Shown: in pieces, positions 877-62,739 of the stretch | Layout of the letters: every line of letters begins with the position of its first letter | Position numbering within the stretch: the first letter of the stretch is position 1 | Source of the DNA: an uncultured Candidatus Saccharibacteria bacterium | GTDB lineage: Bacteria; Patescibacteriota; Saccharimonadia; Saccharimonadales; Saccharimonadaceae | NCBI GenBank assembly: GCA_963553085.1 | Contig: CAUVLR010000001.1 | Span: 5,342 to 69,341, forward strand | Direction: 5' to 3' | Length of the DNA stretch: 64,000 nucleotides | The notes under the pieces: model-generated | Databases searched by the model: none | Told to the model about the DNA's origin: nothing | What the model saw: the letters and a program-made list of their open reading frames with translations, nothing else | Program-made: the position numbers and the translations under genes

Positions 877-939
877 GTCTGTAATTTCCCTATACGCATA
901 GCTTGAGTGGGTACGAGTAGTACAGGTGGTCTCCTCAGG
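877..939 (-). repeat. Arm repeat: inverted solo copy of the elA 3' arm and terminus (left inverted repeat of composite locus 1)
   Basis: TCTGTAATTTCCC...GTACGAGTAGTACAGGTGGTCTCCTCAGGC is the near-exact reverse complement of 1243-1306. Confidence 0.85.
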
Positions 940-962
940 CTCTGCTACTTAGCAACCCCCAC

Positions 963-1063
963 TCTTCGTCTCGTCATCATTTCCTTCAGACCCGCCCGGC
1001 TGGCTCGTGCACTGCTGAGCTTCAAGCGTGCACAGTCTTCAGGAAATGACTGACGCAGACGAA
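963..1063 (+). repeat. hpB copy 1: 101-nt imperfect hairpin repeat
   Basis: CTTCGTCT..CATTTCCTTCAGAC pairs with GTCTTCAGGAAATG..AGACGAAG. Apical stem is GTGCAC/GTGCAC. Four more copies are in the window. Confidence 0.85.
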
Positions 1064-1100
1064 GGACGAAAGACACCCTTTGAGTTGTAAGGAAAGCTAT

Positions 1101-1306
1101 GTCTGTAATTTCCCCGGTCTCATTCCATAGTTGGACCTCAATCTAAGTAAACATTCCCGGGTACGAGCAGTACAGTGTGGTTGACGAAGGCTGTTGATAT
1201 ATCAGTAAGCTAGCAATTGCCAGTGGTACTCGCTACGTCGCCAGGCCTGAGGAGACCACCTGTACTGCTCGTGTGTCAAAGAGTTATGTGTATGGGGAAA
1301 TTACAG
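1101..1306 (+). repeat. elA copy 1 (short form, 206 nt): structured repeat closed by its termini
   Basis: TCTGTAATTTCCCC (5' end) pairs with GGGGAAATTACAGA (3' end). Inner arms GGTACGAGCAGTACAGTGTGGT and ACCACCTGTACTGCTCGT also pair. Confidence 0.85.
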
Positions 1307-1354
1307 ATATGATATATAAATGAAAGATTAACGAAGAAGCTTAATGCGCACATC

Positions 1355-1413: not shown

Positions 1414-1629
1414 ATGGCAAAGGACCAGATTACCGGTAAACACGCCATGAGTGGCAATAATGTCAGCTTCTCAATGCGTCATACCAAGCGTAAGTTTAAG
1501 CCAAATTTACAGCGTAAGACTTTCTATGTGAACGGTCAGAAGGTGCGTCTGCTGGTAGCGACCAGTACTATCAAGACACTTAAGAAGAAGGGGTTCGCCA
1601 CTCAGCCGGAAGAAACCGGCAAGAAATAG
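1414..1629 (+). CDS. rpmB: 50S ribosomal protein L28
   Basis: 71 aa. N-terminus MAKDQITGKHAMSGNNVSFSMRHTKRKFKPNLQ matches the L28 pattern. Confidence 0.9.
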   Translation: MAKDQITGKHAMSGNNVSFSMRHTKRKFKPNLQRKTFYVNGQKVRLLVATSTIKTLKKKGFATQPEETGKK

Positions 1630-1653
1630 CCGGTAGCCCGACAAGATCAGAGA

Positions 1654-4106: not shown

Positions 4107-7100
4107 ATGAAAGTTGTTGACCGGGTCAGTAAGATCAGACCTATTAAGTCGTGGTGTGGTCTGAAGCAAGCCCTCACCGCCACCACGCTAGCTCTCTTCA
4201 GCGTGCTATTGATGACCAGCCCGGTGATAGCTGTCTGCCAGAGAGACATCACCGGCAAACAGACCGGCCAGCCGGTCAGCGAGGATCACACCAGCAATGT
4301 CATCCAGCTGATTCATCTGGCTCACACCGCCAATACATTTAACACCGAGTATGGTGCGTATAGCAATAAAGATAGCAACTATGCCGGTACGACCATCGCC
4401 CTACTCAGGAACGGCAAGGTGTACAGCTGGGGCAACAATATCTATGGTGGCGTTGGCAACAATACCACTTGTACTATGACCAGCAACGTTTACCTCAAAC
4501 GGCCACCCTGCTACTATAACCAGCCACAAGATATCACTAAATATTTCGGCAACGACAAGGTGGCCAAGCTAGCTAACCGTAGCCAACGAGCTATCGCTAT
4601 CACCGAGTCGGGCAAGATATACCGCTGGGGACAACCTCCGCTAGACGAAGATGGAAAGGATATAATCAGACACCCCACTCAATATCAGGAACTAGCTCCT
4701 TACCATATCATCGGCTATAGCGGGACCGACCGCGGAGGTCCGGGGACTGTCGGTGGAGGTTGGTATGCTTACAGCGACGACACTATCTTTGACATAAGCG
4801 ACGACAAAGTAAGCATGATCAAGCCTCAGCTGAACGGAGCCACTATCAGATCAGTCGACTGTGTTTGGCGCACAAAGGAGTTCCAGCCTGACAATCCGGA
4901 TAAAGACGAGGGTGGTCTCTATGTACTCACTTCCACCAATAAGCTCCTCAGAGTTCAGGACGACGGCAAGACGACCGAAATAACCAACTCTGAAATAGCC
5001 AAGCGAGGCGGATTTAAGCAGATCTATCATTACTACGCCATCGACCATCAAGGTGGACTCTGGCTCTATGGTCATCCCAAATACGAAGGTGAGTCTACTC
5101 TAGTCGACATGCATCCTAGGCTGGTCGGCTCGATCGGCACCAATCTACCGGCGTTGCAAGAGTTCGTTAACTCTAACGGCGTAGAAATCTCTTCATCTAC
5201 TAAGCGAGACCCTATTGTCCGAGGTGTCGACAATCATTTCTACTATCTGGCCACCTACTACACCAATGAATCAAGACTAATGCTCAATCCTATCGATATC
5301 ACCGCCAGTACTAAACACCAGAATATCAGACTGTTTCATGGTGATGCAGGTGCCGTGAATGACAAGACGCCACTAGAGATAGCGACAGACTACAGCAATC
5401 AATTATTCTATGATTACTCCTTCATCCCCGAGGGCAGCGATACTGACCTAGTCTGTACTACCGCTGAAGGTTTGTCGATGCACCATGAGATTATAGGCGA
5501 AGATCCTTCCCTCAATCTCACCCCGACCCTCCCCTTACGCCAGCAACCGAAACAAGATAAAACCGGCGACACTGCTCCGACCTGTGTCAAGATACCTTCT
5601 GATAAACCGAAGCCGGATCCGATCAAACCGCCCACGCCTAATACACCTAATCAGCCCAAGCTGCCCGGCGTACCTAATACCGGACTAAGAGACGACAAGG
5701 TCGTTCAGCTGGTTCACTCACCCGCCACATTTGACTACTATGGCGAGCAGAAGCATGGTATGGGCACCTGGCGAGACCAAGACTACGCCGGCACGACTGT
5801 CGTGCTGACCGAAAGCGGCAAGCTGTATGCCTGGGGTAATAACATTGCGGGCGGAGTCGGTAACGGCACCGGCTACGGTGCGACGTCTAACAAGAAGCCG
5901 CCCGTCTACTACAGTGACCCCCAGGATATCACCAGATTCTTTAACGGCGACAAGATCGTCAAGCTGGTAAATCACCGCCATGCGTTTGCAGCCATCACCA
6001 GCTCCGGCAAAGTATACTACTGGGGACACGGACTGTTCGATAAAGACAGGAAACCCATCATACATCCGGTCACACTGAGCGAGCTGTCACCCTATCACAT
6101 CATTGGCTTCGGTAGAGACATAGATCCCGGCAACTATAACGGCTCCTCTTCCTATGTAGCTAGTCATCCTGACAACATGAGTGATTGTCTTGCCTTTAGC
6201 AAGGATACCATCTTTGTTCTAGATTGTTACAGGTATACAAGCCGGCTCCAGTACCACGACGAGGCAAAGAACCGGATCAAGCCACAGCTCAGTAGTGGCG
6301 CCACTATCCTCGACGTCGATCACATCACGCGTCGCACCCCCACAGCAGAAGAGCCCGAGCCGGATAAGGGAGGCTACTACGCCCTAACCTCCGATCACAA
6401 GTTGCTGAGGGTGCTGGAAGACGGTACCACCAGCGAGATAACCAACTCGGAGATCAAAAAGCGAGGCGGGTTCAAACAATTATCTTATGCCGGTCATTAT
6501 GCCATCGACAGACAGGGTGGTCTATGGTACTACGGCTACCGAGAGGGCAATGACTCTATCCACGATATGGCAAAGATATCAACTAGTGGTAAATTACCTC
6601 ACCTAGATAGCTTCTTTAATGTTCTCGGACCAGTCGCCCGTGGTGCCGATGGAGCGATCTACGCCATAACTGACACGCACATCAATAGCCCCAATCAGTA
6701 CTTCGTGGGCAGGAGCGTTGACCCGATAGACGTCGGCACCCTGCTCGGCGGTAAGCAGAAGATTAAGCTCCTCAGTGGCGAGGTAGAGACAAGGTACCGG
6801 GGAGATTCAGGCTATACTAATGACTACTACCCTCCCAAAGATCTTCCCTTCTATGACTTCGCCTTCGTGCCACAGAGTCAGCCTGATACTGTCTGTGTCG
6901 GGCTGAGTGGCGCCGCCTACAACCGAATCCATGGCGAGAATAGAGGTCCTCTATTTGAGACCATCCAGCCGGTCGATGGCACACTACCATCCACCTGCGT
7001 CAAACTGCCACCGTGGAATGACGGCAAGTCAAACCCGTCACCCGTACCCGGCGCACCCACTACGTCCAAAGCGCCCGGTGTACCTAATACCGGCAGCCAG

Positions 7101-8657
7101 CCTGACCCGATCATTCAGCTAGTCCATATCCCGGCTGTTATTAACGGGGCAATTAATGGAAACTCTGAAAATCTCACAGCTAAGGATACCGACTACGCCG
7201 GCACGGTCATGGTGCTGACTCAGAGTGGCAGAGTATTTGCTTGGGGCAATAACTACGCCGGCAGTGTCGGCGTTGGTACTGCCGGGTTTAAAGTTCCCTA
7301 CCCCGAATCCGTTAAGAGCCGGCGAGAGGGTCATCCCGAATATTACGATACACCTCAGGAGATCACTAAATACTTTGGCGACGATAAAGTGGTCAGGATC
7401 GGACGCTACGGTCGTACTAGCGTCGCCGTTACCCAGTCGGGCAAGCTCTATCAGTGGGGCTGGAGCCACAACCAGCCCTGGGATTGGTACGACCGACTCG
7501 AGAATATAACTTGGACGGAGCCCACTCCCGACCCCACCCCATCCCTCGATAAGGTCACCGGTATAGGTGGGAGTTATGGTGATATCTATTCCGGTGGAGG
7601 TTGGCTGGCTCATGGCGACGACACCATCTTCACTAAGACTAGCACTAGCCAGCTGAAGGACTTTGGAGACAAGCTAAAGCTATCGCTTAATGGCGCCACC
7701 ATTAGGTCAGTCGACTACGTTGATTTCAACGGCAGGATAGCACAGAACCCTCAACTAGGTATCGACCAGTCCTTTAAGACGGGAGTCTATATCCTCACCT
7801 CGACCAATAAATTGCTCCGAGTTAAAAATGATGGTACTACCACCGAAGTAACCAACGACAAGATTAAGAGTCGAGGTGGCATCAGACAGATCGCTAATCA
7901 GTATGCCATCGACAACCAGGGTGGACTGTGGTACTACGGCGTCGGCATGAGTAAAGACCAAATTTACGATATGTCGCTCAAGACGCTAGGTGGCATCACA
8001 CCTCTACCTCGGCTAAGAGACATCGTCGGTGTCGATCTAATTGAGGATTTACACATGCTTAAAGATGGCTGGCAAAGACCCTGGTCATCTAGTGTACTAG
8101 TCCGCAGCATCGACGGACATATCTACGATGTATCACCGGTTCAAACCAAGTTTTCCACCGAAGACGGTGGCTACCCCGAGCGACGCTTCGCCCTAACCGA
8201 TGTGACCAAACTACTCGGTCACGATAAGATCAAACTCTTCGACGGCAAGATCCACAGCACAGGAGACACTAAGCCGGTAGATAATGAGGCGCCCGGACTA
8301 TACGGCTACTCTTACGTCCCGGAGTCGAAGCTAGATACCGTCTGCACTGTTATCAGTGGTGTAGCTAGCGCCAACGCCAGTCAAGCTCAATCACTCTATG
8401 GTCATGGTCATCCGCTGAATGTTAGCGTCACCACTACCAAGCTAGTTAACGACGCCTTCGCTCCGACCTGCGTCAAGTTGCCGCCCTTACTCACACCGGA
8501 CCCCAAACCCGGCCCAACACCAAATCCGAAGCCGACGAAACCGACTAGCGGTATCAAGGCGCCCTTTGACCGGCCCAAAGCACCCGGTGTACCTAATACC
8601 GGTAGTGAGCCACTCTTTATGAGCGTACACCGAGCACCAATCTTCGCTCGGCGCTGA
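4107..8657 (+). CDS. Secreted or surface protein made of three tandem RCC1-like propeller modules, each ending in P-N-T-G
   Basis: 1516 aa with an N-terminal signal or anchor segment. RCC1-type blades are present (GKVYSWGNNIYGGVGN, GKLYAWGNNIAGGVGN, GRVFAWGNNYAGSVG). Modules span about aa 60-526, 527-996 and 997-1499. GGAGG Shine-Dalgarno before the ATG. Confidence 0.75.
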   Translation: MKVVDRVSKIRPIKSWCGLKQALTATTLALFSVLLMTSPVIAVCQRDITGKQTGQPVSEDHTSNVIQLIHLAHTANTFNTEYGAYSNKDSNYAGTTIALLRNGKVYSWGNNIYGGVGNNTTCTMTSNVYLKRPPCYYNQPQDITKYFGNDKVAKLANRSQRAIAITESGKIYRWGQPPLDEDGKDIIRHPTQYQELAPYHIIGYSGTDRGGPGTVGGGWYAYSDDTIFDISDDKVSMIKPQLNGATIRSVDCVWRTKEFQPDNPDKDEGGLYVLTSTNKLLRVQDDGKTTEITNSEIAKRGGFKQIYHYYAIDHQGGLWLYGHPKYEGESTLVDMHPRLVGSIGTNLPALQEFVNSNGVEISSSTKRDPIVRGVDNHFYYLATYYTNESRLMLNPIDITASTKHQNIRLFHGDAGAVNDKTPLEIATDYSNQLFYDYSFIPEGSDTDLVCTTAEGLSMHHEIIGEDPSLNLTPTLPLRQQPKQDKTGDTAPTCVKIPSDKPKPDPIKPPTPNTPNQPKLPGVPNTGLRDDKVVQLVHSPATFDYYGEQKHGMGTWRDQDYAGTTVVLTESGKLYAWGNNIAGGVGNGTGYGATSNKKPPVYYSDPQDITRFFNGDKIVKLVNHRHAFAAITSSGKVYYWGHGLFDKDRKPIIHPVTLSELSPYHIIGFGRDIDPGNYNGSSSYVASHPDNMSDCLAFSKDTIFVLDCYRYTSRLQYHDEAKNRIKPQLSSGATILDVDHITRRTPTAEEPEPDKGGYYALTSDHKLLRVLEDGTTSEITNSEIKKRGGFKQLSYAGHYAIDRQGGLWYYGYREGNDSIHDMAKISTSGKLPHLDSFFNVLGPVARGADGAIYAITDTHINSPNQYFVGRSVDPIDVGTLLGGKQKIKLLSGEVETRYRGDSGYTNDYYPPKDLPFYDFAFVPQSQPDTVCVGLSGAAYNRIHGENRGPLFETIQPVDGTLPSTCVKLPPWNDGKSNPSPVPGAPTTSKAPGVPNTGSQPDPIIQLVHIPAVINGAINGNSENLTAKDTDYAGTVMVLTQSGRVFAWGNNYAGSVGVGTAGFKVPYPESVKSRREGHPEYYDTPQEITKYFGDDKVVRIGRYGRTSVAVTQSGKLYQWGWSHNQPWDWYDRLENITWTEPTPDPTPSLDKVTGIGGSYGDIYSGGGWLAHGDDTIFTKTSTSQLKDFGDKLKLSLNGATIRSVDYVDFNGRIAQNPQLGIDQSFKTGVYILTSTNKLLRVKNDGTTTEVTNDKIKSRGGIRQIANQYAIDNQGGLWYYGVGMSKDQIYDMSLKTLGGITPLPRLRDIVGVDLIEDLHMLKDGWQRPWSSSVLVRSIDGHIYDVSPVQTKFSTEDGGYPERRFALTDVTKLLGHDKIKLFDGKIHSTGDTKPVDNEAPGLYGYSYVPESKLDTVCTVISGVASANASQAQSLYGHGHPLNVSVTTTKLVNDAFAPTCVKLPPLLTPDPKPGPTPNPKPTKPTSGIKAPFDRPKAPGVPNTGSEPLFMSVHRAPIFARR

Positions 8658-11261: not shown

Positions 11262-11506
11262 ACAATGCTTATGAACAAGAGTTCAAAGGCGAAGAGCCAG
11301 CGCTCATCTCGCCTAGCACAGTTCCACATTTACTTTGAAAGTATCTAGGTTAGTCGCTTGAGCGATGATCACCACACTTTCCTAGCTCCCAGCGCAGAGC
11401 TGCGAGGCTGCACCGGGAGCTAGATAGTATCTCAGGAACGACCAAAAACTAGTACATTAGTTGCCCGCCCCACCATGGAGAAATCCAAAAGTGGCGGGTC
11501 TTTTTG
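11262..11506 (+). ncRNA. Candidate ~240-nt noncoding RNA, or leaderless micro-ORF transcript, of unknown family
   Basis: Bounded by the promoter at 11232-11260 and a hairpin plus T-run at 11463-11506. Contains several stems, for example CTAGCTCCC...GGGAGCTAG. The only ORF is 25-27 codons. Confidence 0.3.
11463..11506 (+). terminator. Terminator-like hairpin with T-run
   Basis: CCCGCC..(loop)..GGCGGG followed by TCTTTTT. Confidence 0.55.
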
Positions 11507-11532: not shown

Positions 11533-11633
11533 CTTCGTCTACATCATCATTTCCTTCAGACCCGCCTGGCTGGCTCGTGCACTGCTGAGCTTCAAGCGTG
11601 CACAGTCTTCAGGAAATGACGATGCAGACGAAG
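11533..11633 (+). repeat. hpB copy 2
   Basis: 101 nt, near-identical to 963-1063. Confidence 0.85.
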
Positions 11634-11670
11634 GACAAGAGACACCATTTGAGGCGGAAGGAAGGTTATG

Positions 11671-11975
11671 TCTGTAATTTCCCTAGTCTCATTTCTTAAT
11701 CTAATCTCAATTAAAGCAGGCATTCCTAGGTACGAGTAGTACAGTGTGGTTGACGAAGGCTGTTGATACATCAGTAAGCTAGCAATTGCCAGTGGTGCTA
11801 GCTACGTCGCCAGCCTGTCCAGCTGATGCTAGTTAGGCTAACCTGACATACACAGAGCGTTATTACACCCTAAGTCCTCTTTGCGGTTGTTAGTATTAAG
11901 TATCGTGCTGGAGCCTGAGGAGACCACCTGTACTGCTCGTACACTATAGGGCTATACGTGGAGGGGAAATTACAG
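11671..11975 (+). repeat. elA copy 2 (long form) with nested modI at 11814-11913
   Basis: Same termini and arms as copy 1. An extra ~100-nt stem-loop (CCTGTCCAGC...GCTGGAG) lies between CGTCGCCAG and CCTGAGGAG. Confidence 0.85.
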
Positions 11976-12010
11976 GTGCCAACGGCAATCACGGGCTTTA
12001 CCCTCATATT

Positions 12011-17849: not shown

Positions 17850-17912
17850 CTGTAATTTCCCCTTCACGCATAGCTCGAGTTGGTCCGAATAGCACAGGTG
17901 GTCTCCTCAGGC
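17850..17912 (-). repeat. Arm repeat, inverted solo copy (locus 3)
   Basis: CTGTAATTTCCCC...CACAGGTGGTCTCCTCAGGC, homologous to 877-939. Confidence 0.8.
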
Positions 17913-17935: not shown

Positions 17936-18036
17936 CTTCATCTACATCATCATTTCCTTCAGACCCGCCTGGCTGGCTCGTGTGCTGCTGAGCTTCAAGC
18001 GCACACAGTCTTCAGGAAATGATCAGTAGAGTGAAG
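17936..18036 (+). repeat. hpB copy 3 (variant carrying compensatory substitutions)
   Basis: Apical stem is GTGTGC/GCACAC instead of GTGCAC/GTGCAC. Confidence 0.85.
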
Positions 18037-18082
18037 GACAAAAGACACCCTCTTATGTGCTAAGGGCTATCTAATACTTTAT

Positions 18083-18205: not shown

Positions 18206-18219
18206 GAAAGCCTTCCTGC

Positions 18220-18275
18220 GGGTAAAGAGCAGTACTTGATGGTTAACGAAGACTGTTGATACGACAGTAAGCTAG
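18220..18275 (+). repeat. Degenerate fragment of the elA 5' arm
   Basis: GGTAAAGAGCAGTACTTGATGGTTAACGAAGACTGTTGATACGACAGTAAGCTAG aligns with the elA core GGTACGAGCAGTACAGTGTGGTTGACGAAGGCTGTTGATA..CAGTAAGCTAG. Confidence 0.65.
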
Positions 18276-18284
18276 ATGATACAC

Positions 18285-18488
18285 ACGTAATTTCCTCGGT
18301 CTCATTGCTTAGCCAACCTCAGTCTAAGGTAGACACTCCTGGTACGAGTAGTACAGTGTGGTTGACGAAGGCTGTTGATATAGCAGTAAGCTATCCAGTG
18401 CACGTGGTAGTTTATACGGTGCCAAGCCTGAGGAGACCACCTGTACTACTCGTACGAACCCGGATTATATGTGGAGGGAAATTACAGA
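18285..18488 (+). repeat. elA copy 3 (short form)
   Basis: Termini GTAATTTCCTC / GAGGGAAATTACAGA and conserved arms. Confidence 0.85.
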
Positions 18489-18576: not shown

Positions 18577-19530
18577 ATGACCCATGACAAAGACGCTAAA
18601 AATGATGAATTTTACCTCGCCGACCTGATCATGGACTTCGTCGAGTACATCGAAATAGAGCGAGGCCGATCCATCCGCACCGCCGAGAACTACAACCTGT
18701 ACATGGACCGACTGGTCGAATTCGCCGGCAACATCCCCGTCAGCCAAATCACCGACGAGCTGGTCAGAAAATATCGTCTGTGGCTGAACCGCTTCGTCGA
18801 CGAACAAGGGCGTGAGCTCTCGCTCATCACCCAGAGTTATCATCTGATCGCTCTGCGGAGCTTTCTCAAATATTGCTCGCAGCGAGACATCCCCACCCTG
18901 GATGCCAGCCGGGTCAACCTACCCCGCACTCAGAAGAAACAGGTCTCCTTCCTACTGGCGGAAGAGGTGGCTCGGCTATTCGACGCCATTCCGCTTGACC
19001 AACCTAGCGGACTGCGAGACCGAGCCATCATCGAGCTGCTCTTCTCGGGTGGCATGCGAGTCAGCGAGCTATGTAGCATCAATTGCAACCAGCTCAACCT
19101 GGATCGGCGAGAATTCACCGTCAGGGGCAAGGGTGGTAAAGACCGCCCCATCTTCATCAGTCAATCAGCCGCTGATACGATCGAGCGATATCTGCAGACT
19201 AGGTCGGACGGGCTCAAGCCGCTCTTTCTCAATAACTCTCGCAATATCGTCGAGAGTGATGACGTCGACCTCAGCGAAGCTCGCCGTCTGACTCCCCGCT
19301 CGATCCAGCGAATCGTCAGTAAATATGCTCAAGCAGCTGGCATCACCAAGCATGTCACTCCCCACACTCTGCGCCACTCTTTCGCTACCGACCTGCTGAT
19401 GAATGGCGCCGACCTGCGCTCGGTCCAGTCGATGCTGGGGCACAGCAATATCGCCACCACCCAGATCTACACTCACGTGACCGACCCTCATCTCAAGGAA
19501 GTACACGACAAATTTCAGAGCAACCTGTAA
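18577..19530 (+). CDS. xerC: Tyrosine site-specific recombinase, XerC/XerD family
   Basis: 317 aa. SAM-like N-terminal domain, [38 protein letters not shown] (R-H-R-Y catalytic pattern). Confidence 0.9.
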
Positions 19531-35554: not shown

Positions 35555-35760
35555 AGAGGCAAAGTCTGTAATTTCCCTCTATACATAGTCCTATGGCATA
35601 CGAGTAGTACAGGTGGTCTCCTCAGGCTTGGCACCGTATAAACTACCACGTGCACTGGATAGCTTACTGATATATCAACAGCCTTCGTCAACCACACTGT
35701 ACTACTCGTACCCAGGAATGTTTACTTAGATTGAGGTCCAACTATGGAATGAGACCGGGG
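35555..35760 (-). repeat. elA copy 4 (short form, opposite strand)
   Basis: The reverse complement is nearly identical to copy 1 over the termini, the arms and the variable 5' region. Confidence 0.85.
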
Positions 35761-35797
35761 AAATTACAGACATAGCTTTCCTTACAACTCAAAGGGT

Positions 35798-35898
35798 GTC
35801 TTTCGTCCTTCGTCTGCGTCAGTCATTTCCTGAAGACTGTGCACGCTTGAAGCTCAGCAGTGCACGAGCCAGCCAGGCGGGTCTGAAGGAAATGATGA
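35798..35898 (-). repeat. hpB copy 4 (opposite strand)
   Basis: The reverse complement is near-identical to 963-1063. A degenerate arm remnant follows at about 35923-35950. Confidence 0.85.
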
Positions 35899-35992
35899 CG
35901 AGACGAAGAGTGAGAGATTGGCTAGGTAGTAGAGTCGAGGAGACCATACAGCCTGCTCCGGGCTACAAAGCTTTTAGGGGCTAGCCTGTCCA

Positions 35993-36943: not shown

Positions 36944-36995
36944 TCAGAGCCAGTCGTATGGTCTCCTCAGTTCTACTGCCTAGTCAGCCCTCATT

Positions 36996-37096
36996 CTTCA
37001 TCTGCATCATCATTTCCTTCAGACCCGCCTGGCTGGCTCGTGCACTGCTGAGCTTCAAGCGTGCACAGTCTTCAGGAAATGACGATGCAGACGAAG
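36996..37096 (+). repeat. hpB copy 5
   Basis: 101 nt, preceded by an arm remnant (GTATGGTCTCCTCAG, about 36965-36981). Confidence 0.85.
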
Positions 37097-37135
37097 GACA
37101 ACATGTACCCTTAGCGTGATTAAAGGTACTATGTG

Positions 37136-37421
37136 TCTGTAATTTCCCCGGTCTCATTTCTTAGTCTAGCTTCAGTCAGAGATGAACACTCCTAGTACGA
37201 GTAGTACAGTGTGGTTGACGAAGGCTGTTGATACAGCAGTAAGCTATCCAGTGCACGTGGTAGTTTATACGGTGCCAACCTGTCCAGCACCCAGCAGATG
37301 CGTAAGTCTATTCAGGTATAATTTAAGCTCATATTACACCATAGTTCTTCTTACGCAACGCCAGCTCTATGTATCCTGCTGGGATGCTGGAGCCTGAGGA
37401 GACCACCTGTACTACTCGTAC
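37136..37421 (+). repeat. elA copy 5a (long form, nested modI at 37279-37392, 3' terminus missing)
   Basis: Conserved 5' terminus and both arms are present. The GGGGAAATTACAG end is absent. Confidence 0.8.
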
Positions 37422-37488
37422 AGGGAGCTATATATATGAAAGGAGACCACACGCCCTACTCTGAGCTACAAGACTTAATATTTATACG

Positions 37489-37806
37489 TATGTAATTTCC
37501 CTGGCCTCATTCCATGGTCTGCCGTCAATCAAGCAAAGCATTCCTAGGTACGAGTAGTACAGTGTGGTTGACGAAGGATGTTGATACAACAGCAAGGTTA
37601 CAATTGCCAGTGGTAACTTACACGTCGCCAGCCTGTCCAGCACCCAGCAGATGCGTAAGTCTATTCGTATACAATTTAAGCCTATATATGCCTCGGCTCT
37701 TCTTGTACAATACCAACTTTATGCATCCTGCTGGGATGCTGGAGCCTGAGGAGACCACCTGTACTGCTCGTGTGTCAAAGAGTTATGTGTATGGGGAAAT
37801 TACAGA
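37489..37806 (+). repeat. elA copy 5b (long form, nested modI at 37632-37744)
   Basis: Complete termini and arms, in tandem with copy 5a. Confidence 0.85.
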
Positions 37807-37845
37807 CCATGCTCTGAGCCACAAGCTTTCGTAAGTAATTATACC

Positions 37846-37904
37846 TAAGGAGACCACCTGCACTACTCGTACACTATAGAGTTATGCATGGAGGGAAATT
37901 ACGG
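37846..37904 (+). repeat. Solo elA 3' arm and terminus
   Basis: AAGGAGACCACCTGCACTACTCGTACACTATAGAGTTATGCATGGAGGGAAATTACGGA. Confidence 0.75.
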
Positions 37905-37924
37905 ATTCCGTTTATGCTCTGATG

Positions 37925-59297: not shown

Positions 59298-60848
59298 ATG
59301 TATCGAAATAGTCAGCGAAAAGTCGGCGGTATAGCCCTATTTAAGGTACTATTCGCCGTTAGTCTACCGGTTCTCAGCTTGGTCTCACCGATGACTGCCA
59401 TCGCTCAGCCAGCTCCCACCATCATTCAGTCCGACCCGGTAGTTCAACTGGTCCATGTTCCGGCACTTAGTGCCAGCTTTCGCAAGACTTATCGACCGTA
59501 TAGCGAGCTGGCAAAGACTGATCGGACAGAGCAGCTGTGGCGAGATAGTGACTACGCCGGAGCAACGGTCGCCCTGACTAAAAGCGGCAAAGTGTATGCT
59601 TGGGGCAACAATATCCGTGGCCATGTGGGTAACGGCACAACCTGCACTTTATCCAGCCCCGGTCAATATGATAAGAAGCCGCCCTGTTACTACGACCAAC
59701 CACAAAATATCACGAAGTACTTCGGTAATGATAAAGTCACTAAGCTTGCCAGTAACCATGTTAGTATAGTTGTCGCCTTAACTACTTCAGGTAAGCTGTA
59801 CTACTGGGGTCGGGATTGGGATCCGGTCGCCAGCGAAAACGTAGTGATCAATCAACCGACGACACTAGACACACTATCGCCTTACCGTGTTACCGGCTTC
59901 GGAGGGCATGGTGCCGGATTTAGCAGAGATTTCGAATATTTCCCCCATGACGCCTGGTACGCCTATAATGATGACACCTTGTTTTTAGTTGGTGGCACTG
60001 GCACTTTTCTCTCCTTTAGCGATGATGCTAAGCATGTCATCAAACCTAAGCTGGATGGTGCCACCATCAAGCAAGTCGACTATGTCGATACCGGATATAC
60101 TCCCGGTCGAAATGGTACTTATATCCTGACCTCCAAAAACAAGCTCTTTCACCTCAAATTCGATGGAAGCACGACTGAGGTTACTAACGACAAGATCAAG
60201 AGTAGAGGTGGCATCAAGCAAATCTTTAACCACTATGCCATCGATCACCAGGGTGGACTGTGGTTCTATGGCTATGGCAAGAATATTGACCCTGTGATAC
60301 AAGATATGTCACAAAAAACCATCAAGCCACTGCCAATCGCCCGTGATCTACTGACTTATAATTATGATACTGTCATACTCGGTGCCGATAACCATATCTA
60401 CAATATTAATGTATATCGCTTCGACGAGAACAAACATTTTCTCAATACCATGATGGTCAAGTCGATGGATATCACCACCTTAATTAGTAAAGAAAGGGTG
60501 AAGTTACTTAATGGTGGTATGAGTCAGCGATTTCCAGAAGATGTTCATATACTAGAGAATTACTACGACTACTCTTTTACGCCCGAAAGCCAGCCGGATA
60601 CAGTTTGTACCGGGCTTAGTGGTGTAGCTGCTAATGATTTTAATCAGGAATCCGAGGAAAGAAACCCGCCCAAGACTGAGACTACCCGACCGGTCAATGG
60701 CACCCTCCCTACTACCTGCGTCAAGATGCCACCGGTCACAGTCCAGGTTCCTGCACCTGCGCCGACACCGACTCAGCCAGCACCCGGTGCTCCCGACTTC
60801 ACAGCCAAACGCAATAATCTCCGAGCACCCAATACCGGCAGCCAATAG
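59298..60848 (+). CDS. Secreted single-module RCC1-like propeller protein ending in APNTGSQ (paralog of the modules in 4107-8657)
   Basis: 516 aa with a signal peptide (...PMTAIAQP). GKVYAWGNNIRGHVGNGT and YAIDHQGGLWFYG. Long stretches resemble each module of the 1516-aa protein. Confidence 0.75.
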   Translation: MYRNSQRKVGGIALFKVLFAVSLPVLSLVSPMTAIAQPAPTIIQSDPVVQLVHVPALSASFRKTYRPYSELAKTDRTEQLWRDSDYAGATVALTKSGKVYAWGNNIRGHVGNGTTCTLSSPGQYDKKPPCYYDQPQNITKYFGNDKVTKLASNHVSIVVALTTSGKLYYWGRDWDPVASENVVINQPTTLDTLSPYRVTGFGGHGAGFSRDFEYFPHDAWYAYNDDTLFLVGGTGTFLSFSDDAKHVIKPKLDGATIKQVDYVDTGYTPGRNGTYILTSKNKLFHLKFDGSTTEVTNDKIKSRGGIKQIFNHYAIDHQGGLWFYGYGKNIDPVIQDMSQKTIKPLPIARDLLTYNYDTVILGADNHIYNINVYRFDENKHFLNTMMVKSMDITTLISKERVKLLNGGMSQRFPEDVHILENYYDYSFTPESQPDTVCTGLSGVAANDFNQESEERNPPKTETTRPVNGTLPTTCVKMPPVTVQVPAPAPTPTQPAPGAPDFTAKRNNLRAPNTGSQ

Positions 60849-62643: not shown

Positions 62644-62739
62644 TCTACTATAAAGCTACTATAAAATTTTTTAGGACTAAAACAGACTAGCTCACATCTG
62701 TAAAATCAGTCTACTATAAAGCTACTATAAAGTTTTTAT
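62644..62739 (+). repeat. Two ~29-nt direct repeats 66 bp apart, each an internal tandem of CTACTATAAA
   Basis: TCTACTATAAAGCTACTATAAAATTTTTT (62644) and TCTACTATAAAGCTACTATAAAGTTTTTA (62710). Confidence 0.6.

What the first reader, a model, noticed from the sequence alone, without database searches (positions are those of the whole stretch)
17936..18036. Double compensatory substitution preserves the apical stem of hpB
In hpB copies 1, 2, 4 and 5 the apical stem is GTGCAC (for example 1006-1011) pairing with GTGCAC (1027-1032). In copy 3 the 5' strand is GTGTGC (17980-17985) and the 3' strand is GCACAC (18001-18006).

Two adjacent base pairs have therefore switched (C-G to U-A and A-U to G-C) while pairing stays perfect. 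The 15-nt loop TGCTGAGCTTCAAGC is unchanged.

The basal stem of copy 3 also carries a G-to-A change (CTTCATCT) matched by a C-to-T change in the partner strand (..GTGAAG). Copy 5 has the same G-to-A change without compensation, so the evidence is not uniform.
Basis: seen in the sequence. Interest (0 to 1): 0.7.

Follow-up and report, generated by a model that had tools for sequence, protein, structure and literature searches.

The report
Covarying hairpin in Saccharibacteria mosaic repeat
The paired base changes are real and the hairpin's stems are kept complementary, but the hairpin belongs to a multicopy, invertible, non-coding repeat found in oral Saccharibacteria genomes, so it is not yet shown to be an RNA gene.

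Summary
The window holds exactly five hpB copies. Copy 3 has GTGTGC/GCACAC where the other four have GTGCAC/GTGCAC, and the 15-nt loop is unchanged.

I collected 82 full copies from at least 52 species-level Candidatus Saccharibacteria assemblies (Nanoperiomorbus/G5 clade). GTGTGC/GCACAC is the second major allele, not a private event in copy 3.
- Watson-Crick states: 41 CA/TG and 24 TG/CA.
- Mixed states: 6 TG/TG (two G.U) and 2 CA/CA (two A.C).

Pairing is constrained. Paired sites stay associated: normalised MI is 0.54 at 19-21 nt and 0.26-0.35 at 80-96 nt. Unpaired polymorphic sites 11-66 nt apart show almost none (0.00-0.04). Further compensatory changes occur in the basal stem and at the tip (A-U to U-A).

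hpB is a module of a mosaic repeat ordered T-inverted-repeat, hpB, C, T-inverted-repeat. This repeat:
- is absent at one orthologous site;
- is reverse-complemented in place at 5 of 8 orthologous loci;
- shows no orientation bias relative to genes;
- has no consensus promoter or terminator and no Rfam match.

No transposase was found. The closest known kind is REPIN/BIME/MITE-like palindromic DNA, where compensatory changes are already documented. Whether the folded form is RNA or single-stranded DNA is unresolved.

The parts
17936..18037 (+). hpB copy 3 (the finding). The basal stem is CTTCATCTAC / GTAGAGTGAAG. The 5' arm is type B and the 3' arm is a modified type C.
17980..17985 (+). Apical stem, 5' strand: GTGTGC (TG allele)
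17986..18000 (+). Apical 'loop' TGCTGAGCTTCAAGC. It is partly paired inside (GCU/AGC plus G-C and A-U around a GCU triloop).
18001..18006 (+). Apical stem, 3' strand: GCACAC (CA allele)
963..1065 (+). hpB copy 1 (basal arms A/A; apical GTGCAC at 1007-1012 and 1028-1033)
11533..11633 (+). hpB copy 2 (arms B/B with one A.C; apical GTGCAC/GTGCAC). It is part of an insertion at about 11535-12010 that is absent from the orthologous site in L109.
35804..35912 (-). hpB copy 4 (arms A/A), just downstream of holA
36996..37096 (+). hpB copy 5 (arms B/B with an uncompensated A.C), upstream of holA. It is inverted relative to copy 4.
877..942 (+). T module (left inverted repeat of the locus-1 cassette): GTCTGTAATTTCCC..GGTACGAGTAGTACAGGTGGTCTCCTCAGGC
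1100..1244 (+). C module of the locus-1 cassette. C follows hpB in the same orientation wherever the two are adjacent.
1245..1307 (-). T module (right inverted repeat of the locus-1 cassette). It pairs with 877-942 in the fold of the whole cassette.
17850..17912 (+). T module, left inverted repeat of the cassette that holds copy 3
18219..18409 (+). Two C modules (one partial at 18219-18275, one at 18287-18409) of the cassette that holds copy 3
18425..18488 (-). T module, right inverted repeat of the cassette that holds copy 3
18577..19530 (+). Xer-like tyrosine recombinase gene, 89 bp beyond the cassette. Any link to the element is not shown.

Best explanation
**What hpB is (shown).** hpB is a roughly 103-nt hairpin module of a multicopy, non-coding mosaic repeat. 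The canonical order is T inverted repeat, hpB, one or two C modules, then inverted T. The repeat is 0.45-1 kb long. In a scan of one genome per species it was found only in Candidatus Saccharibacteria assemblies, including named Nanoperiomorbus (G5) genomes.

**Hairpin anatomy (predicted).**
- A two-part basal and middle stem of about 22-26 bp.
- A 4-bp helix, AGAC/GUCU.
- A three-way junction carrying a 3-bp mini-hairpin, GCC-UGGCU-GGC.
- An apical arm of 6 bp plus 5 further pairs.

**The copy-3 variant (shown).** GTGTGC/GCACAC is the second major allele of the apical stem. It is not a fresh mutation in copy 3.

**Constraint on pairing (shown).** Complementarity is actively maintained. The 5' arm, the apical cassette and the 3' arm are reshuffled among copies by recombination or gene conversion, yet paired positions remain associated while neighbouring unpaired positions do not.

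**Mechanism (inferred).** I infer that the element must fold as a single strand for its own maintenance or spread. This would be an intrastrand DNA hairpin or cruciform used during transposition, replication or recombination, as in REPIN and IS200-type elements. Unpaired recombinants would then be lost or repaired.

**DNA dynamics (shown).** The cassette is present or absent at an orthologous site. It is also flipped in place by exchange within the conserved inner 25-30 bp of the flanking T repeats.

**Open.** The enzyme responsible is unknown. An additional or alternative RNA-level role is possible.
For: **Distribution.**
- 120 loci were returned, nearly all Saccharibacteria, from at least 52 assemblies.
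- There are five copies in this 64-kb window.

**Allele counts.**
- Among the 73 copies with a standard 5' strand: CA/TG 41, TG/CA 24, TG/TG 6, CA/CA 2. The other 9 of the 82 are a variant with an extra A in the 5' strand and an altered loop.

**Constraint.**
- Normalised MI is 0.54 for the apical pairs and 0.26-0.35 for four basal pairs 80-96 nt apart. All have permutation p <= 0.0005. Unpaired sites 11-66 nt apart give 0.00-0.04.
- 96.7% of cells are paired against 93.8% in shuffles (0 of 500 shuffles as high). Slid controls give 31-44%.

**Further compensatory changes.**
- Tip pair A-U 58 / U-A 9, both changes transversions.
- L056 U-A to C-G; L071 A-U to G-C; B subtypes A-T and G-C.

**DNA-level behaviour.**
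- Empty site in L109, with the opposite orientation in L060, L090 and L099 at the same site.
- A 540-bp cassette is reverse-complemented between L046 and L103: 471/539 identical when inverted, with colinear flanks.
- Both orientations occur at 5 of 8 orthologous loci.
- At locus 1, a bare hpB lies in the opposite orientation to L031 in L037 and L013.

**No gene-like features.**
- No orientation bias relative to genes: 14 co-oriented, 22 anti-oriented, 10 divergent, 5 convergent.
- No consensus promoter or terminator in the two cassette regions scanned (loci 1 and 4/5).
- No Rfam match.
- Both strands fold, and DNA parameters give the same structure.
- G.U-type and A.C-type single changes are about equal.

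Against: - **No enzyme found.** No transposase or other cognate enzyme was seen among genes flanked by the modules. A tblastn with an IS200 TnpA sequence recalled from memory found nothing in about 770 kb. That is a weak test.
- **Asymmetric core.** hpB is not a doublet of inverted REP units. Its 51-nt core is asymmetric and its unpaired loops are almost invariant, which also fits a specifically recognised RNA.
- **Wobble state persists.** TG/TG (G.U on the hpB strand) appears in L051, L063, L083 and L104, which look like one orthologous locus, and in L098 and L110, which share a second. The A.C state occurs in only two copies (L067, L118), not seen to share a locus.
- **T-arm bias.** In T+/T- arm pairs, G.U-type differences outnumber A.C-type 49 to 26 on the hpB strand.
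- **Imperfect constraint.** 29% of copies have discordant basal arms. Five copies carry an uncompensated change that destroys the AGAC/GUCU helix. Constraint is therefore incomplete, or some MAG copies are chimeric.
Confidence: 0.5

Rival explanations
1. hpB is a structured RNA. It would be either a cis-acting element in the untranslated regions of neighbouring genes (a processing, stability or protein-binding site) or a small RNA. The stems would covary because the RNA fold is selected. The DNA mobility would only be how the RNA module is distributed.
For: - Covariation follows pairing, not distance.
- One compensatory pair changed by transversions on both sides.
- The loops and the three-way junction are almost invariant across at least 52 species. 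112 of 118 copies with the junction region covered carry the exact junction sequence. Most of these were found with that pattern; the rest lie in the same loci, and the six exceptions all come from those.
- The G.U intermediate TG/TG persists in several species at what appear to be two loci, while A.C is rare.
- G.U-type differences exceed A.C-type 49 to 26 in T+/T- pairs on the hpB strand.
- Copies lie next to highly expressed genes: rpmB, rpsT, rpsJ and tRNAs.
Against: - No orientation preference relative to flanking genes.
- The cassette is inverted at 5 of 8 orthologous loci, which would put the antisense sequence into any host transcript.
- No consensus promoter or terminator and no Rfam family.
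- There are no fixed G.U pairs, so both strands fold equally well.
- Single G.U-type and A.C-type changes are balanced inside hpB.
- The copy number, 5 in 64 kb, is unusual for a small-RNA gene.
Confidence: 0.3
2. The complementarity is restored mechanically rather than by selection. Intrastrand template switching, or arm-to-arm gene conversion in a quasi-palindrome, copies a change from one arm onto the other. Double 'compensatory' changes would then arise in one step and need no function.
For: - The element is a long quasi-palindrome, the known substrate for template-switch correction (established knowledge of quasipalindrome mutagenesis).
- All apical changes are adjacent dinucleotides mirrored in the two arms.
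- At locus 1 a bare hpB with near-perfect 26-bp arms lies in opposite orientations in close relatives. This is indistinguishable from a flip of its core, as with hairpin-loop inversions.
- Copies exchange sequence freely: several apical states occur at one orthologous locus.
Against: - Conserved asymmetries are never 'corrected': two bulged C residues in the type A 3' arm, the asymmetric 51-nt core, and the A bulge in the variant allele.
- Mismatched states persist: A.C in window copies 2 and 5, and TG/TG in several species at what appears to be one locus.
- Template switching alone does not explain why the unpaired loops are invariant.
Confidence: 0.12
3. There is no constraint at all. The two apical sites are only 20 nt apart and are inherited together as two subfamily haplotypes, so the apparent covariation is plain linkage and shared ancestry. 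MAG assembly artefacts could add to it.
For: - Only two major apical haplotypes exist.
- The number of pairs with changes on both sides is not above the shuffles (9 against 8.0; 141 of 500).
- Many contigs end inside hpB, so assemblies are disturbed by the repeat.
Against: - Polymorphic unpaired sites 11-45 nt apart are in complete equilibrium (MI 0.00-0.04). Paired sites at 19-21 nt and at 80-96 nt are strongly associated.
- The apical state is independent of the basal arm type: CA with A16/B14/C13, TG with A11/B9/C10.
- Private double changes keep pairing in single copies, L056 and L071.
- The same alleles recur in dozens of independent assemblies and in this window.
Confidence: 0.05

Closest known systems
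REPINs / REP sequences with RAYT transposases (Pseudomonas, E. coli; Bertels & Rainey 2011, PMC3116915)
   Same: - Extragenic and multicopy.
- Long hairpins of about 70-110 nt, predicted in ssDNA or mRNA.
- Compensatory changes on the two sides of the hairpin.
- Higher-order clusters.
- Persistence within one lineage.
   Different: - hpB is not two inverted copies of a short REP. Its 51-nt core is asymmetric with a three-way junction.
- No RAYT or Y1 transposase was found.
- hpB is embedded in a larger cassette bounded by inverted repeats.
BIMEs (bacterial interspersed mosaic elements) of enterobacteria
   Same: Mosaic arrangement of several repeat modules in a fixed order and orientation within intergenic regions. 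The palindromic units occur together with other conserved motifs.
   Different: The sequences, the host (a reduced-genome CPR episymbiont) and the module sizes all differ. The 60-65-bp T inverted repeats that bound an invertible segment are not a BIME feature.
MITEs such as Correia/NEMIS (Neisseria) and ERIC/IRU
   Same: - Non-coding elements under 1 kb with terminal inverted repeats.
- Insertion polymorphism between relatives.
- Either orientation.
- Fold into long hairpins when transcribed.
   Different: - No target-site duplication could be defined.
- No parent insertion sequence with matching ends was found.
- The internal hairpin, not only the termini, is the most conserved part.
- In-place inversion is frequent.
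Invertible DNA switches (invertons, fimS, shufflons)
   Same: A segment of 0.3-0.9 kb is bounded by inverted repeats and is found in both orientations at the same locus. A tyrosine recombinase gene lies next to one cassette.
   Different: - No promoter was detected inside the cassette.
- Both orientations were seen only between species, not within one population.
- There are many copies per genome.
- The recombinase looks like a housekeeping Xer.
Integron attC sites and the CTX-phage attP(+) folded ssDNA substrate
   Same: Imperfect palindromes whose structure is conserved through covarying arms. They are recognised as folded single-stranded DNA by tyrosine recombinases.
   Different: - No R/L boxes (GTTRRRY).
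- No cassette array in a single orientation.
- No IntI-type integrase: the integron model scores 148 bits against a cut-off of 265.

Membership tests
REPIN / REP-RAYT system | The element is a doublet of two inverted short REP units that together form the hairpin | tested here: not met
   The arms are inverted repeats, but the 51-nt core (CAGACCCGCCTGGCTGGCTC..apical hairpin..) is asymmetric and is not two copies of one unit.
REPIN / REP-RAYT system | A cognate single-copy RAYT (Y1 HUH transposase) gene flanked by the repeats | tested here: inconclusive
   None was found among ORFs flanked by modules. tblastn with an IS200 TnpA sequence recalled from memory found nothing in about 770 kb. Whole genomes were not searched.
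REPIN / REP-RAYT system | Extragenic, high copy number, with compensatory changes across the hairpin | tested here: met
   Five copies in 64 kb, all intergenic. Covariation is shown.
MITE | Terminal inverted repeats on a short non-coding element | tested here: met
   T+ and T- (about 65 bp, ending TCTGTAATTTCCCC / GGGGAAATTACAGA) bound the cassette. The only ORFs overlapping the repeats are short gene calls with no Pfam family.
MITE | Insertion polymorphism with a definable target-site duplication | tested here: inconclusive
   L109 has an empty site where the window has an insertion. The junctions are ambiguous (TA, TAG or a longer direct repeat) and they differ in the inverted alleles.
MITE | A related autonomous insertion sequence with the same termini | tested here: not met
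   No transposase-bearing copy was found in the window or in 120 loci. There were no matches on viral contigs.
Structured non-coding RNA family | Covariation that supports the secondary structure | tested here: met
   The signal is equally compatible with an ssDNA hairpin.
Structured non-coding RNA family | Own promoter and terminator, or a consistent orientation within host transcripts | tested here: not met
   No consensus promoter or terminator in the cassette. Orientation relative to genes is unbiased and flips between species.
Structured non-coding RNA family | Evidence of transcription and of folding in vitro or in vivo | not testable with these tools
   No transcriptome or probing data are available here.
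Structured non-coding RNA family | Match to a curated RNA family | tested here: not met
   At Rfam gathering thresholds only five tRNAs match. At E <= 10 on locus 1 there are only chance-level hits.
Invertible DNA switch (inverton) | Inverted repeats flanking a segment that is found in both orientations at one locus | tested here: met
   L046 against L103. Five of 8 orthologous loci show both orientations. These comparisons are between species only.
Invertible DNA switch (inverton) | A promoter or other directional signal inside the invertible segment | tested here: not met
   No sigma-70-like site in the cassette on either strand.
Invertible DNA switch (inverton) | A dedicated invertase | tested here: inconclusive
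   A Xer-like tyrosine recombinase lies 89 bp from cassette 3. It scores best to the XerC, XerD and XerA models and only 51-58 bits to the invertase models, whose cut-offs are 221-222.
Integron attC | R''/L''-L'/R' boxes, a cassette array in one orientation, and an adjacent IntI | tested here: not met
   No GTTRRRY boxes are seen in the alignment. Copies are dispersed and lie in both orientations. The recombinase scores below the integron-integrase cut-offs.

The most novel reading that the evidence does not exclude
The T-bounded cassettes could be a genome-wide set of recombinase-flipped switches in an ultra-small episymbiont. By extrapolation from 5 copies in 64 kb there would be dozens per genome of under 1 Mb. 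hpB would be a strand-specific structured RNA, or a protein-binding hairpin, whose orientation changes the expression or stability of the adjacent transcripts. The neighbouring Xer-like recombinase would act as the global invertase.
Probability: 0.1. Interest if true: 0.8.

Novelty: new variant of a known kind. Interest (0 to 1): 0.5.

Why it matters
Candidate phyla radiation bacteria such as Saccharibacteria have very small genomes and are generally thought to carry little repetitive or mobile DNA. Here one oral lineage carries a dense mosaic repeat family: 5 hpB copies and at least 15 associated modules in 64 kb.

- **Unusual conservation.** Its most conserved part is a covarying hairpin that is kept almost identical across at least 52 species.
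- **Frequent inversion.** The cassettes are inverted in place at most of the loci that could be compared.
- **Practical consequence.** The repeats break metagenome assemblies of these organisms, and many contigs end inside hpB.
- **Methodological point.** Clean compensatory substitutions in a repeated hairpin do not by themselves show that it is an RNA gene.
- **If functional.** A strand-specific RNA or a recombinase substrate would point to a new regulatory or genome-plasticity mechanism in episymbionts that are hard to culture.

Tried and rejected
- **Rfam.** The whole window at gathering thresholds gives only tRNAs. Locus 1 at E <= 10 gives only chance-level miRNA and snoRNA hits.
- **Ribozyme or T-loop resemblance of the apical loop.** I considered this by eye and dropped it. 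The hammerhead core CUGANGA is not present, and no Rfam model supports it.
- **Transposase search.** Pfam on the neighbouring genes gives housekeeping functions: M50 peptidase, metallo-beta-lactamase fold, ThrRS, holA, a sigma factor and prepilin peptidase. ORFs flanked on both sides by modules are holA, a phosphoribosyltransferase, rpsJ and unknowns. tblastn with a remembered IS200 TnpA sequence gave no hit.
- **Viral contigs.** The hpB pattern gave one chance hit in GC-rich coding sequence. The T pattern gave none.
- **Half copies.** L042, L045 and L117 looked like a possible master locus. They are a truncated hpB 5' half upstream of the promoter of a P-type ATPase gene.
- **Strand test from G.U against A.C.** The counts are balanced inside hpB and only moderately biased in the T arms, so the test is not decisive.
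- **Arm inversion as the cause.** I checked whether the apical change could result from inverting the apical hairpin. It cannot, because the loop is unchanged.
- **Literature.** Searches for Saccharibacteria or Patescibacteria with MITE, REP or repeat terms found no description of this family.
- **Not done.** The single metagenome-contig scan was not used. No covariance model was built, because pattern, BLAST and nhmmer searches already recovered the family.

Full report
**1. The observation**

- The 15-nt motif TGCTGAGCTTCAAGC occurs five times in the window with no mismatch: at 1013, 11583, 17986 and 37046 on +, and at 35845 on -. The chance expectation is 0.13.
- A profile search finds exactly these five hpB copies.
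- In copy 3 the flanking hexamers are GTGTGC (17980-17985) and GCACAC (18001-18006). The other four copies have GTGCAC on both sides.
The correct positions are 1007-1012 and 1028-1033.
- The basal-stem statements are also right. Copy 3 has a G-C to A-T change. Copy 5 has the same G-to-A change left as A.C.
- All five copies fold into the same roughly 103-nt hairpin. It has a long basal and middle stem, a 2x2 internal loop, a 4-bp helix, and a three-way junction. The junction carries a 3-bp mini-hairpin and the apical arm.
- Fold z-scores are -4.0 to -6.2 as RNA and -5.3 to -7.3 as DNA. The opposite strand folds about as well.

**2. Host and family**

- The window is bacterial. It encodes a sigma-70 factor, holA, ThrRS, prepilin peptidase, L28 and five tRNAs.
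- Its holA protein is found on a metagenome contig (ENA ERZ21659802) and on a Logan contig whose two ends lie inside hpB.
- I scanned one genome per GTDB species with the junction pattern CAGACCCGCCNGGCTGGCTC. This pattern leaves the basal, middle and apical stems unspecified.
All but two chance hits are Candidatus Saccharibacteria assemblies, including Ca. Nanoperiomorbus periodonticus (G5, HOT-356). At least 52 assemblies are represented.
- Many hits lie at contig ends, so the repeat breaks assemblies.
- Of 118 copies with the junction region covered, 112 carry the exact pattern. Most of these were found with that pattern. The rest are further copies in the same loci, and all six exceptions come from those.

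**3. Covariation in 82 full copies (alignment A2)**

*Apical stem*
- Among the 73 copies with a standard 5' strand: CA/TG 41, TG/CA 24, TG/TG 6 (two G.U on the hpB strand), CA/CA 2 (two A.C).
- The other nine copies are a variant with an extra A in the 5' strand and an altered loop.
- The odds ratio is 82 and Fisher p = 1.3e-11.
- Copy 3 therefore carries the second major allele rather than a private event. Both alleles coexist within single genomes. Several apical states occur at one orthologous locus in different species.

*Other compensated positions*
- A third allele changes the 'loop' from GAGCUUC to GUGCUAC in nine copies. This turns a predicted A-U pair closing a GCU triloop into U-A, with transversions on both sides.
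- The basal stem has three main arm types, A, B and C, each self-complementary.
- A and the B subtypes are related by G-C to A-T exchanges.
- Private compensated changes occur in L056 (U-A to C-G) and L071 (A-U to G-C).

*Whole-structure statistics*
- Over 39 pairs, 96.7% of cells are paired against 93.8% in shuffles (0 of 500 as high).
- The covariation score is 0.152 against 0.094 (0 of 500 as high).
- Slid controls give 31-44% paired.
- The number of pairs with changes on both sides (9) is not above the shuffles (8.0; 141 of 500). There are therefore few independent events.

**4. Control for linkage**

- Copies are related and they recombine, so I compared association between paired and unpaired polymorphic columns.
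- Paired apical columns, 19-21 nt apart, have normalised MI 0.54.
- Paired basal columns, 80-96 nt apart, have 0.26-0.35. All of these have permutation p <= 0.0005.
- Unpaired polymorphic columns 11-66 nt apart have 0.00-0.04, none significant. This includes apical-3' against basal-3' columns at 20-30 nt.
- Apical state is independent of basal arm type: CA with A16/B14/C13, TG with A11/B9/C10.
- Association therefore follows pairing and not distance. Simple hitch-hiking is ruled out.
- Random-endpoint gene conversion is also ruled out (my inference from segment lengths). It should produce more half-converted apical stems than fully converted ones, yet only 8 of 73 are mixed.
- Constraint is not absolute. 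24 of 82 copies have discordant basal arms. Five copies carry TCAGACCC changed to TTGTTGCC, which destroys the 4-bp helix without compensation. Some chimeras could be strain-mixing artefacts in MAGs.

**5. What hpB belongs to**

- Module mapping across all loci gives one canonical order: [T+] hpB+ C+ (C+) T-. C follows hpB in the same orientation wherever the two are adjacent. C plus T- units also occur without hpB, and bare hpB is rare.
- T+ and T- are inverted repeats of about 65 bp. They end in TCTGTAATTTCCCC and share an inner block, GGTACGAGTAGTACAGGTGGTCTCCTCAGGC.
- The whole locus-1 cassette (870-1312) folds with a roughly 62-bp closing stem (z = -11.7).
- T arms of one cassette are only loosely complementary. 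Over nine cassettes the differences are 26 transversions, 48 gap columns, 49 G.U-type and 26 A.C-type.

**6. DNA-level dynamics at orthologous loci**

Many loci are syntenic with the window at 85-97% identity.
- **Locus 2.** The Nanoperiomorbus reference (L109) has an empty site where the window has an insertion of about 480 bp. L060, L090 and L099 carry the cassette in the opposite orientation at the same site.
- **Locus 1.** Relatives carry different arm types. One is a recombinant with its crossover in the core (L024). One has a bare hpB in the window's orientation (L031), and two have a bare hpB in the opposite orientation (L037, L013).
- **Upstream of holA.** The roughly 540-bp cassette of L103 is the reverse complement of that of L046. 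Identity is 471/539 when inverted against 307/428 when direct. The flanks are colinear, and the left outer T variable part is unchanged. The exchange points therefore lie in the conserved inner T block.
- **Systematic count.** Five of eight orthologous loci seen in two or more assemblies show both orientations.

**7. RNA or DNA?**

*Against a conventional RNA gene or cis-RNA*
- No orientation preference relative to flanking genes: 14 co-oriented tandem, 22 anti-oriented, 10 divergent, 5 convergent.
- Frequent inversion.
- No consensus promoter or terminator in the cassette.
- No Rfam match.
- No fixed G.U pairs, and balanced G.U-type and A.C-type single changes inside hpB.

*In favour of a strand-specific folded form*
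- The loops are nearly invariant.
- The TG/TG wobble state appears in L051, L063, L083 and L104, which look like one orthologous locus, and in L098 and L110, which share a second. The A.C state is seen in only two copies, not known to share a locus.
- G.U-type differences outnumber A.C-type 49 to 26 in the T arms.

*Enzymes and precedent*
- No cognate enzyme was identified.
- A Xer-like tyrosine recombinase gene lies 89 bp from the cassette that holds copy 3. It scores as XerC, XerD or XerA and may simply be the housekeeping Xer.
- Compensatory changes across the hairpin are already described for REPINs, which are thought to act as ssDNA or mRNA hairpins (PMC3116915).

**8. Verdict**

- The observation and the inference of structural constraint stand.
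- The best-supported reading is a new REPIN/BIME/MITE-like mosaic repeat family of the Nanoperiomorbus clade. Its conserved hairpin must stay foldable as a single strand, most likely for the element's own DNA transactions (confidence 0.5).
- A structured-RNA role is the main rival (0.3).
- Mechanical arm-to-arm correction (0.12) and plain linkage (0.05) are less likely.
- I found no published description of these repeats in the searchable literature.

Noticed in passing
L046:3530-4075 vs L103:1130-1680; window 35564-35958 and 36957-37905: The whole T-bounded cassette (hpB plus C) is reverse-complemented in place between species while the flanking genes stay colinear. Five of 8 orthologous loci show both orientations. 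The exchange points lie in the conserved inner T block GTACAGGTGGTCTCCTC.
   Followed up: yes
window 11535-12010 vs L109:6122-6129: The Ca. Nanoperiomorbus periodonticus reference has an empty site (..GACACCTTTA|GCGCCTAGG..) where the window carries hpB-C-T. The junctions do not give a clear target-site duplication.
   Followed up: partly
L042 (- strand, about 5880-6030), L045:6640-6830, L117:2030-2220: A truncated 5' half of hpB (..TCATTTCYCTCAGACCCGCCTGGCTGGCTCGTGTGYTGCTGAGCTAC) is conserved in three species. It lies just upstream of an extended -10 promoter (TGTTATAAT) and the start of a P-type ATPase gene. It may be a domesticated remnant.
   Followed up: partly
window 18577-19530 (+): A Xer-like tyrosine recombinase gene lies 89 bp downstream of the T- repeat of the cassette holding copy 3. 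It scores 228 bits to the XerA/integron-integrase model NF040815, above that model's cut-off, and is conserved next to repeats in L038 and L003. Any link to cassette inversion is untested.
   Followed up: partly
L077:976-1084, L075:224-299, L035:178-268, L071:5691-5770, L009:2532-2625: A subfamily has TCAGACCC replaced by TTGTTGCC. This abolishes the predicted AGAC/GUCU helix, and the 3' strand shows no compensating change.
   Followed up: no
window 4107-8657 (+) and 59298-60848 (+): A 1516-aa protein with RCC1-like repeats contains internal DNA repeats spaced about 1.4 kb apart. It shares them with a second gene 52 kb away (repeat families D4, D6, D8-D11, D13, D15).
   Followed up: no
window 62644-62737: Two copies of TCTACTATAAAGCTACTATAAA[A/G]TTTTT, 66 nt apart, lie in an intergenic region (repeat family D20). 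Their function is unknown.
   Followed up: no
window 11453-11503: A clear intrinsic terminator (GCCCGCCCCAC..GTGGCGGGTC followed by TTTTTGTT) lies about 425 nt downstream of tRNA-Val and immediately before hpB copy 2. The 425-nt stretch upstream of it has no ORF of 150 aa or more.
   Followed up: no
L003-L122 (table): A large share of hpB hits lie within the first or last 100 nt or so of their contigs. This repeat family is therefore a systematic break point in metagenome assemblies of these Saccharibacteria.
   Followed up: partly
window 1416-1630 (+): A short gene for ribosomal protein L28 (rpmB) lies just beyond cassette 1, with a good promoter (TTGACT, 18 nt, TATACT at 1355-1384). The cassette is upstream of that promoter, so it is not part of the rpmB transcript.
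   Followed up: partly
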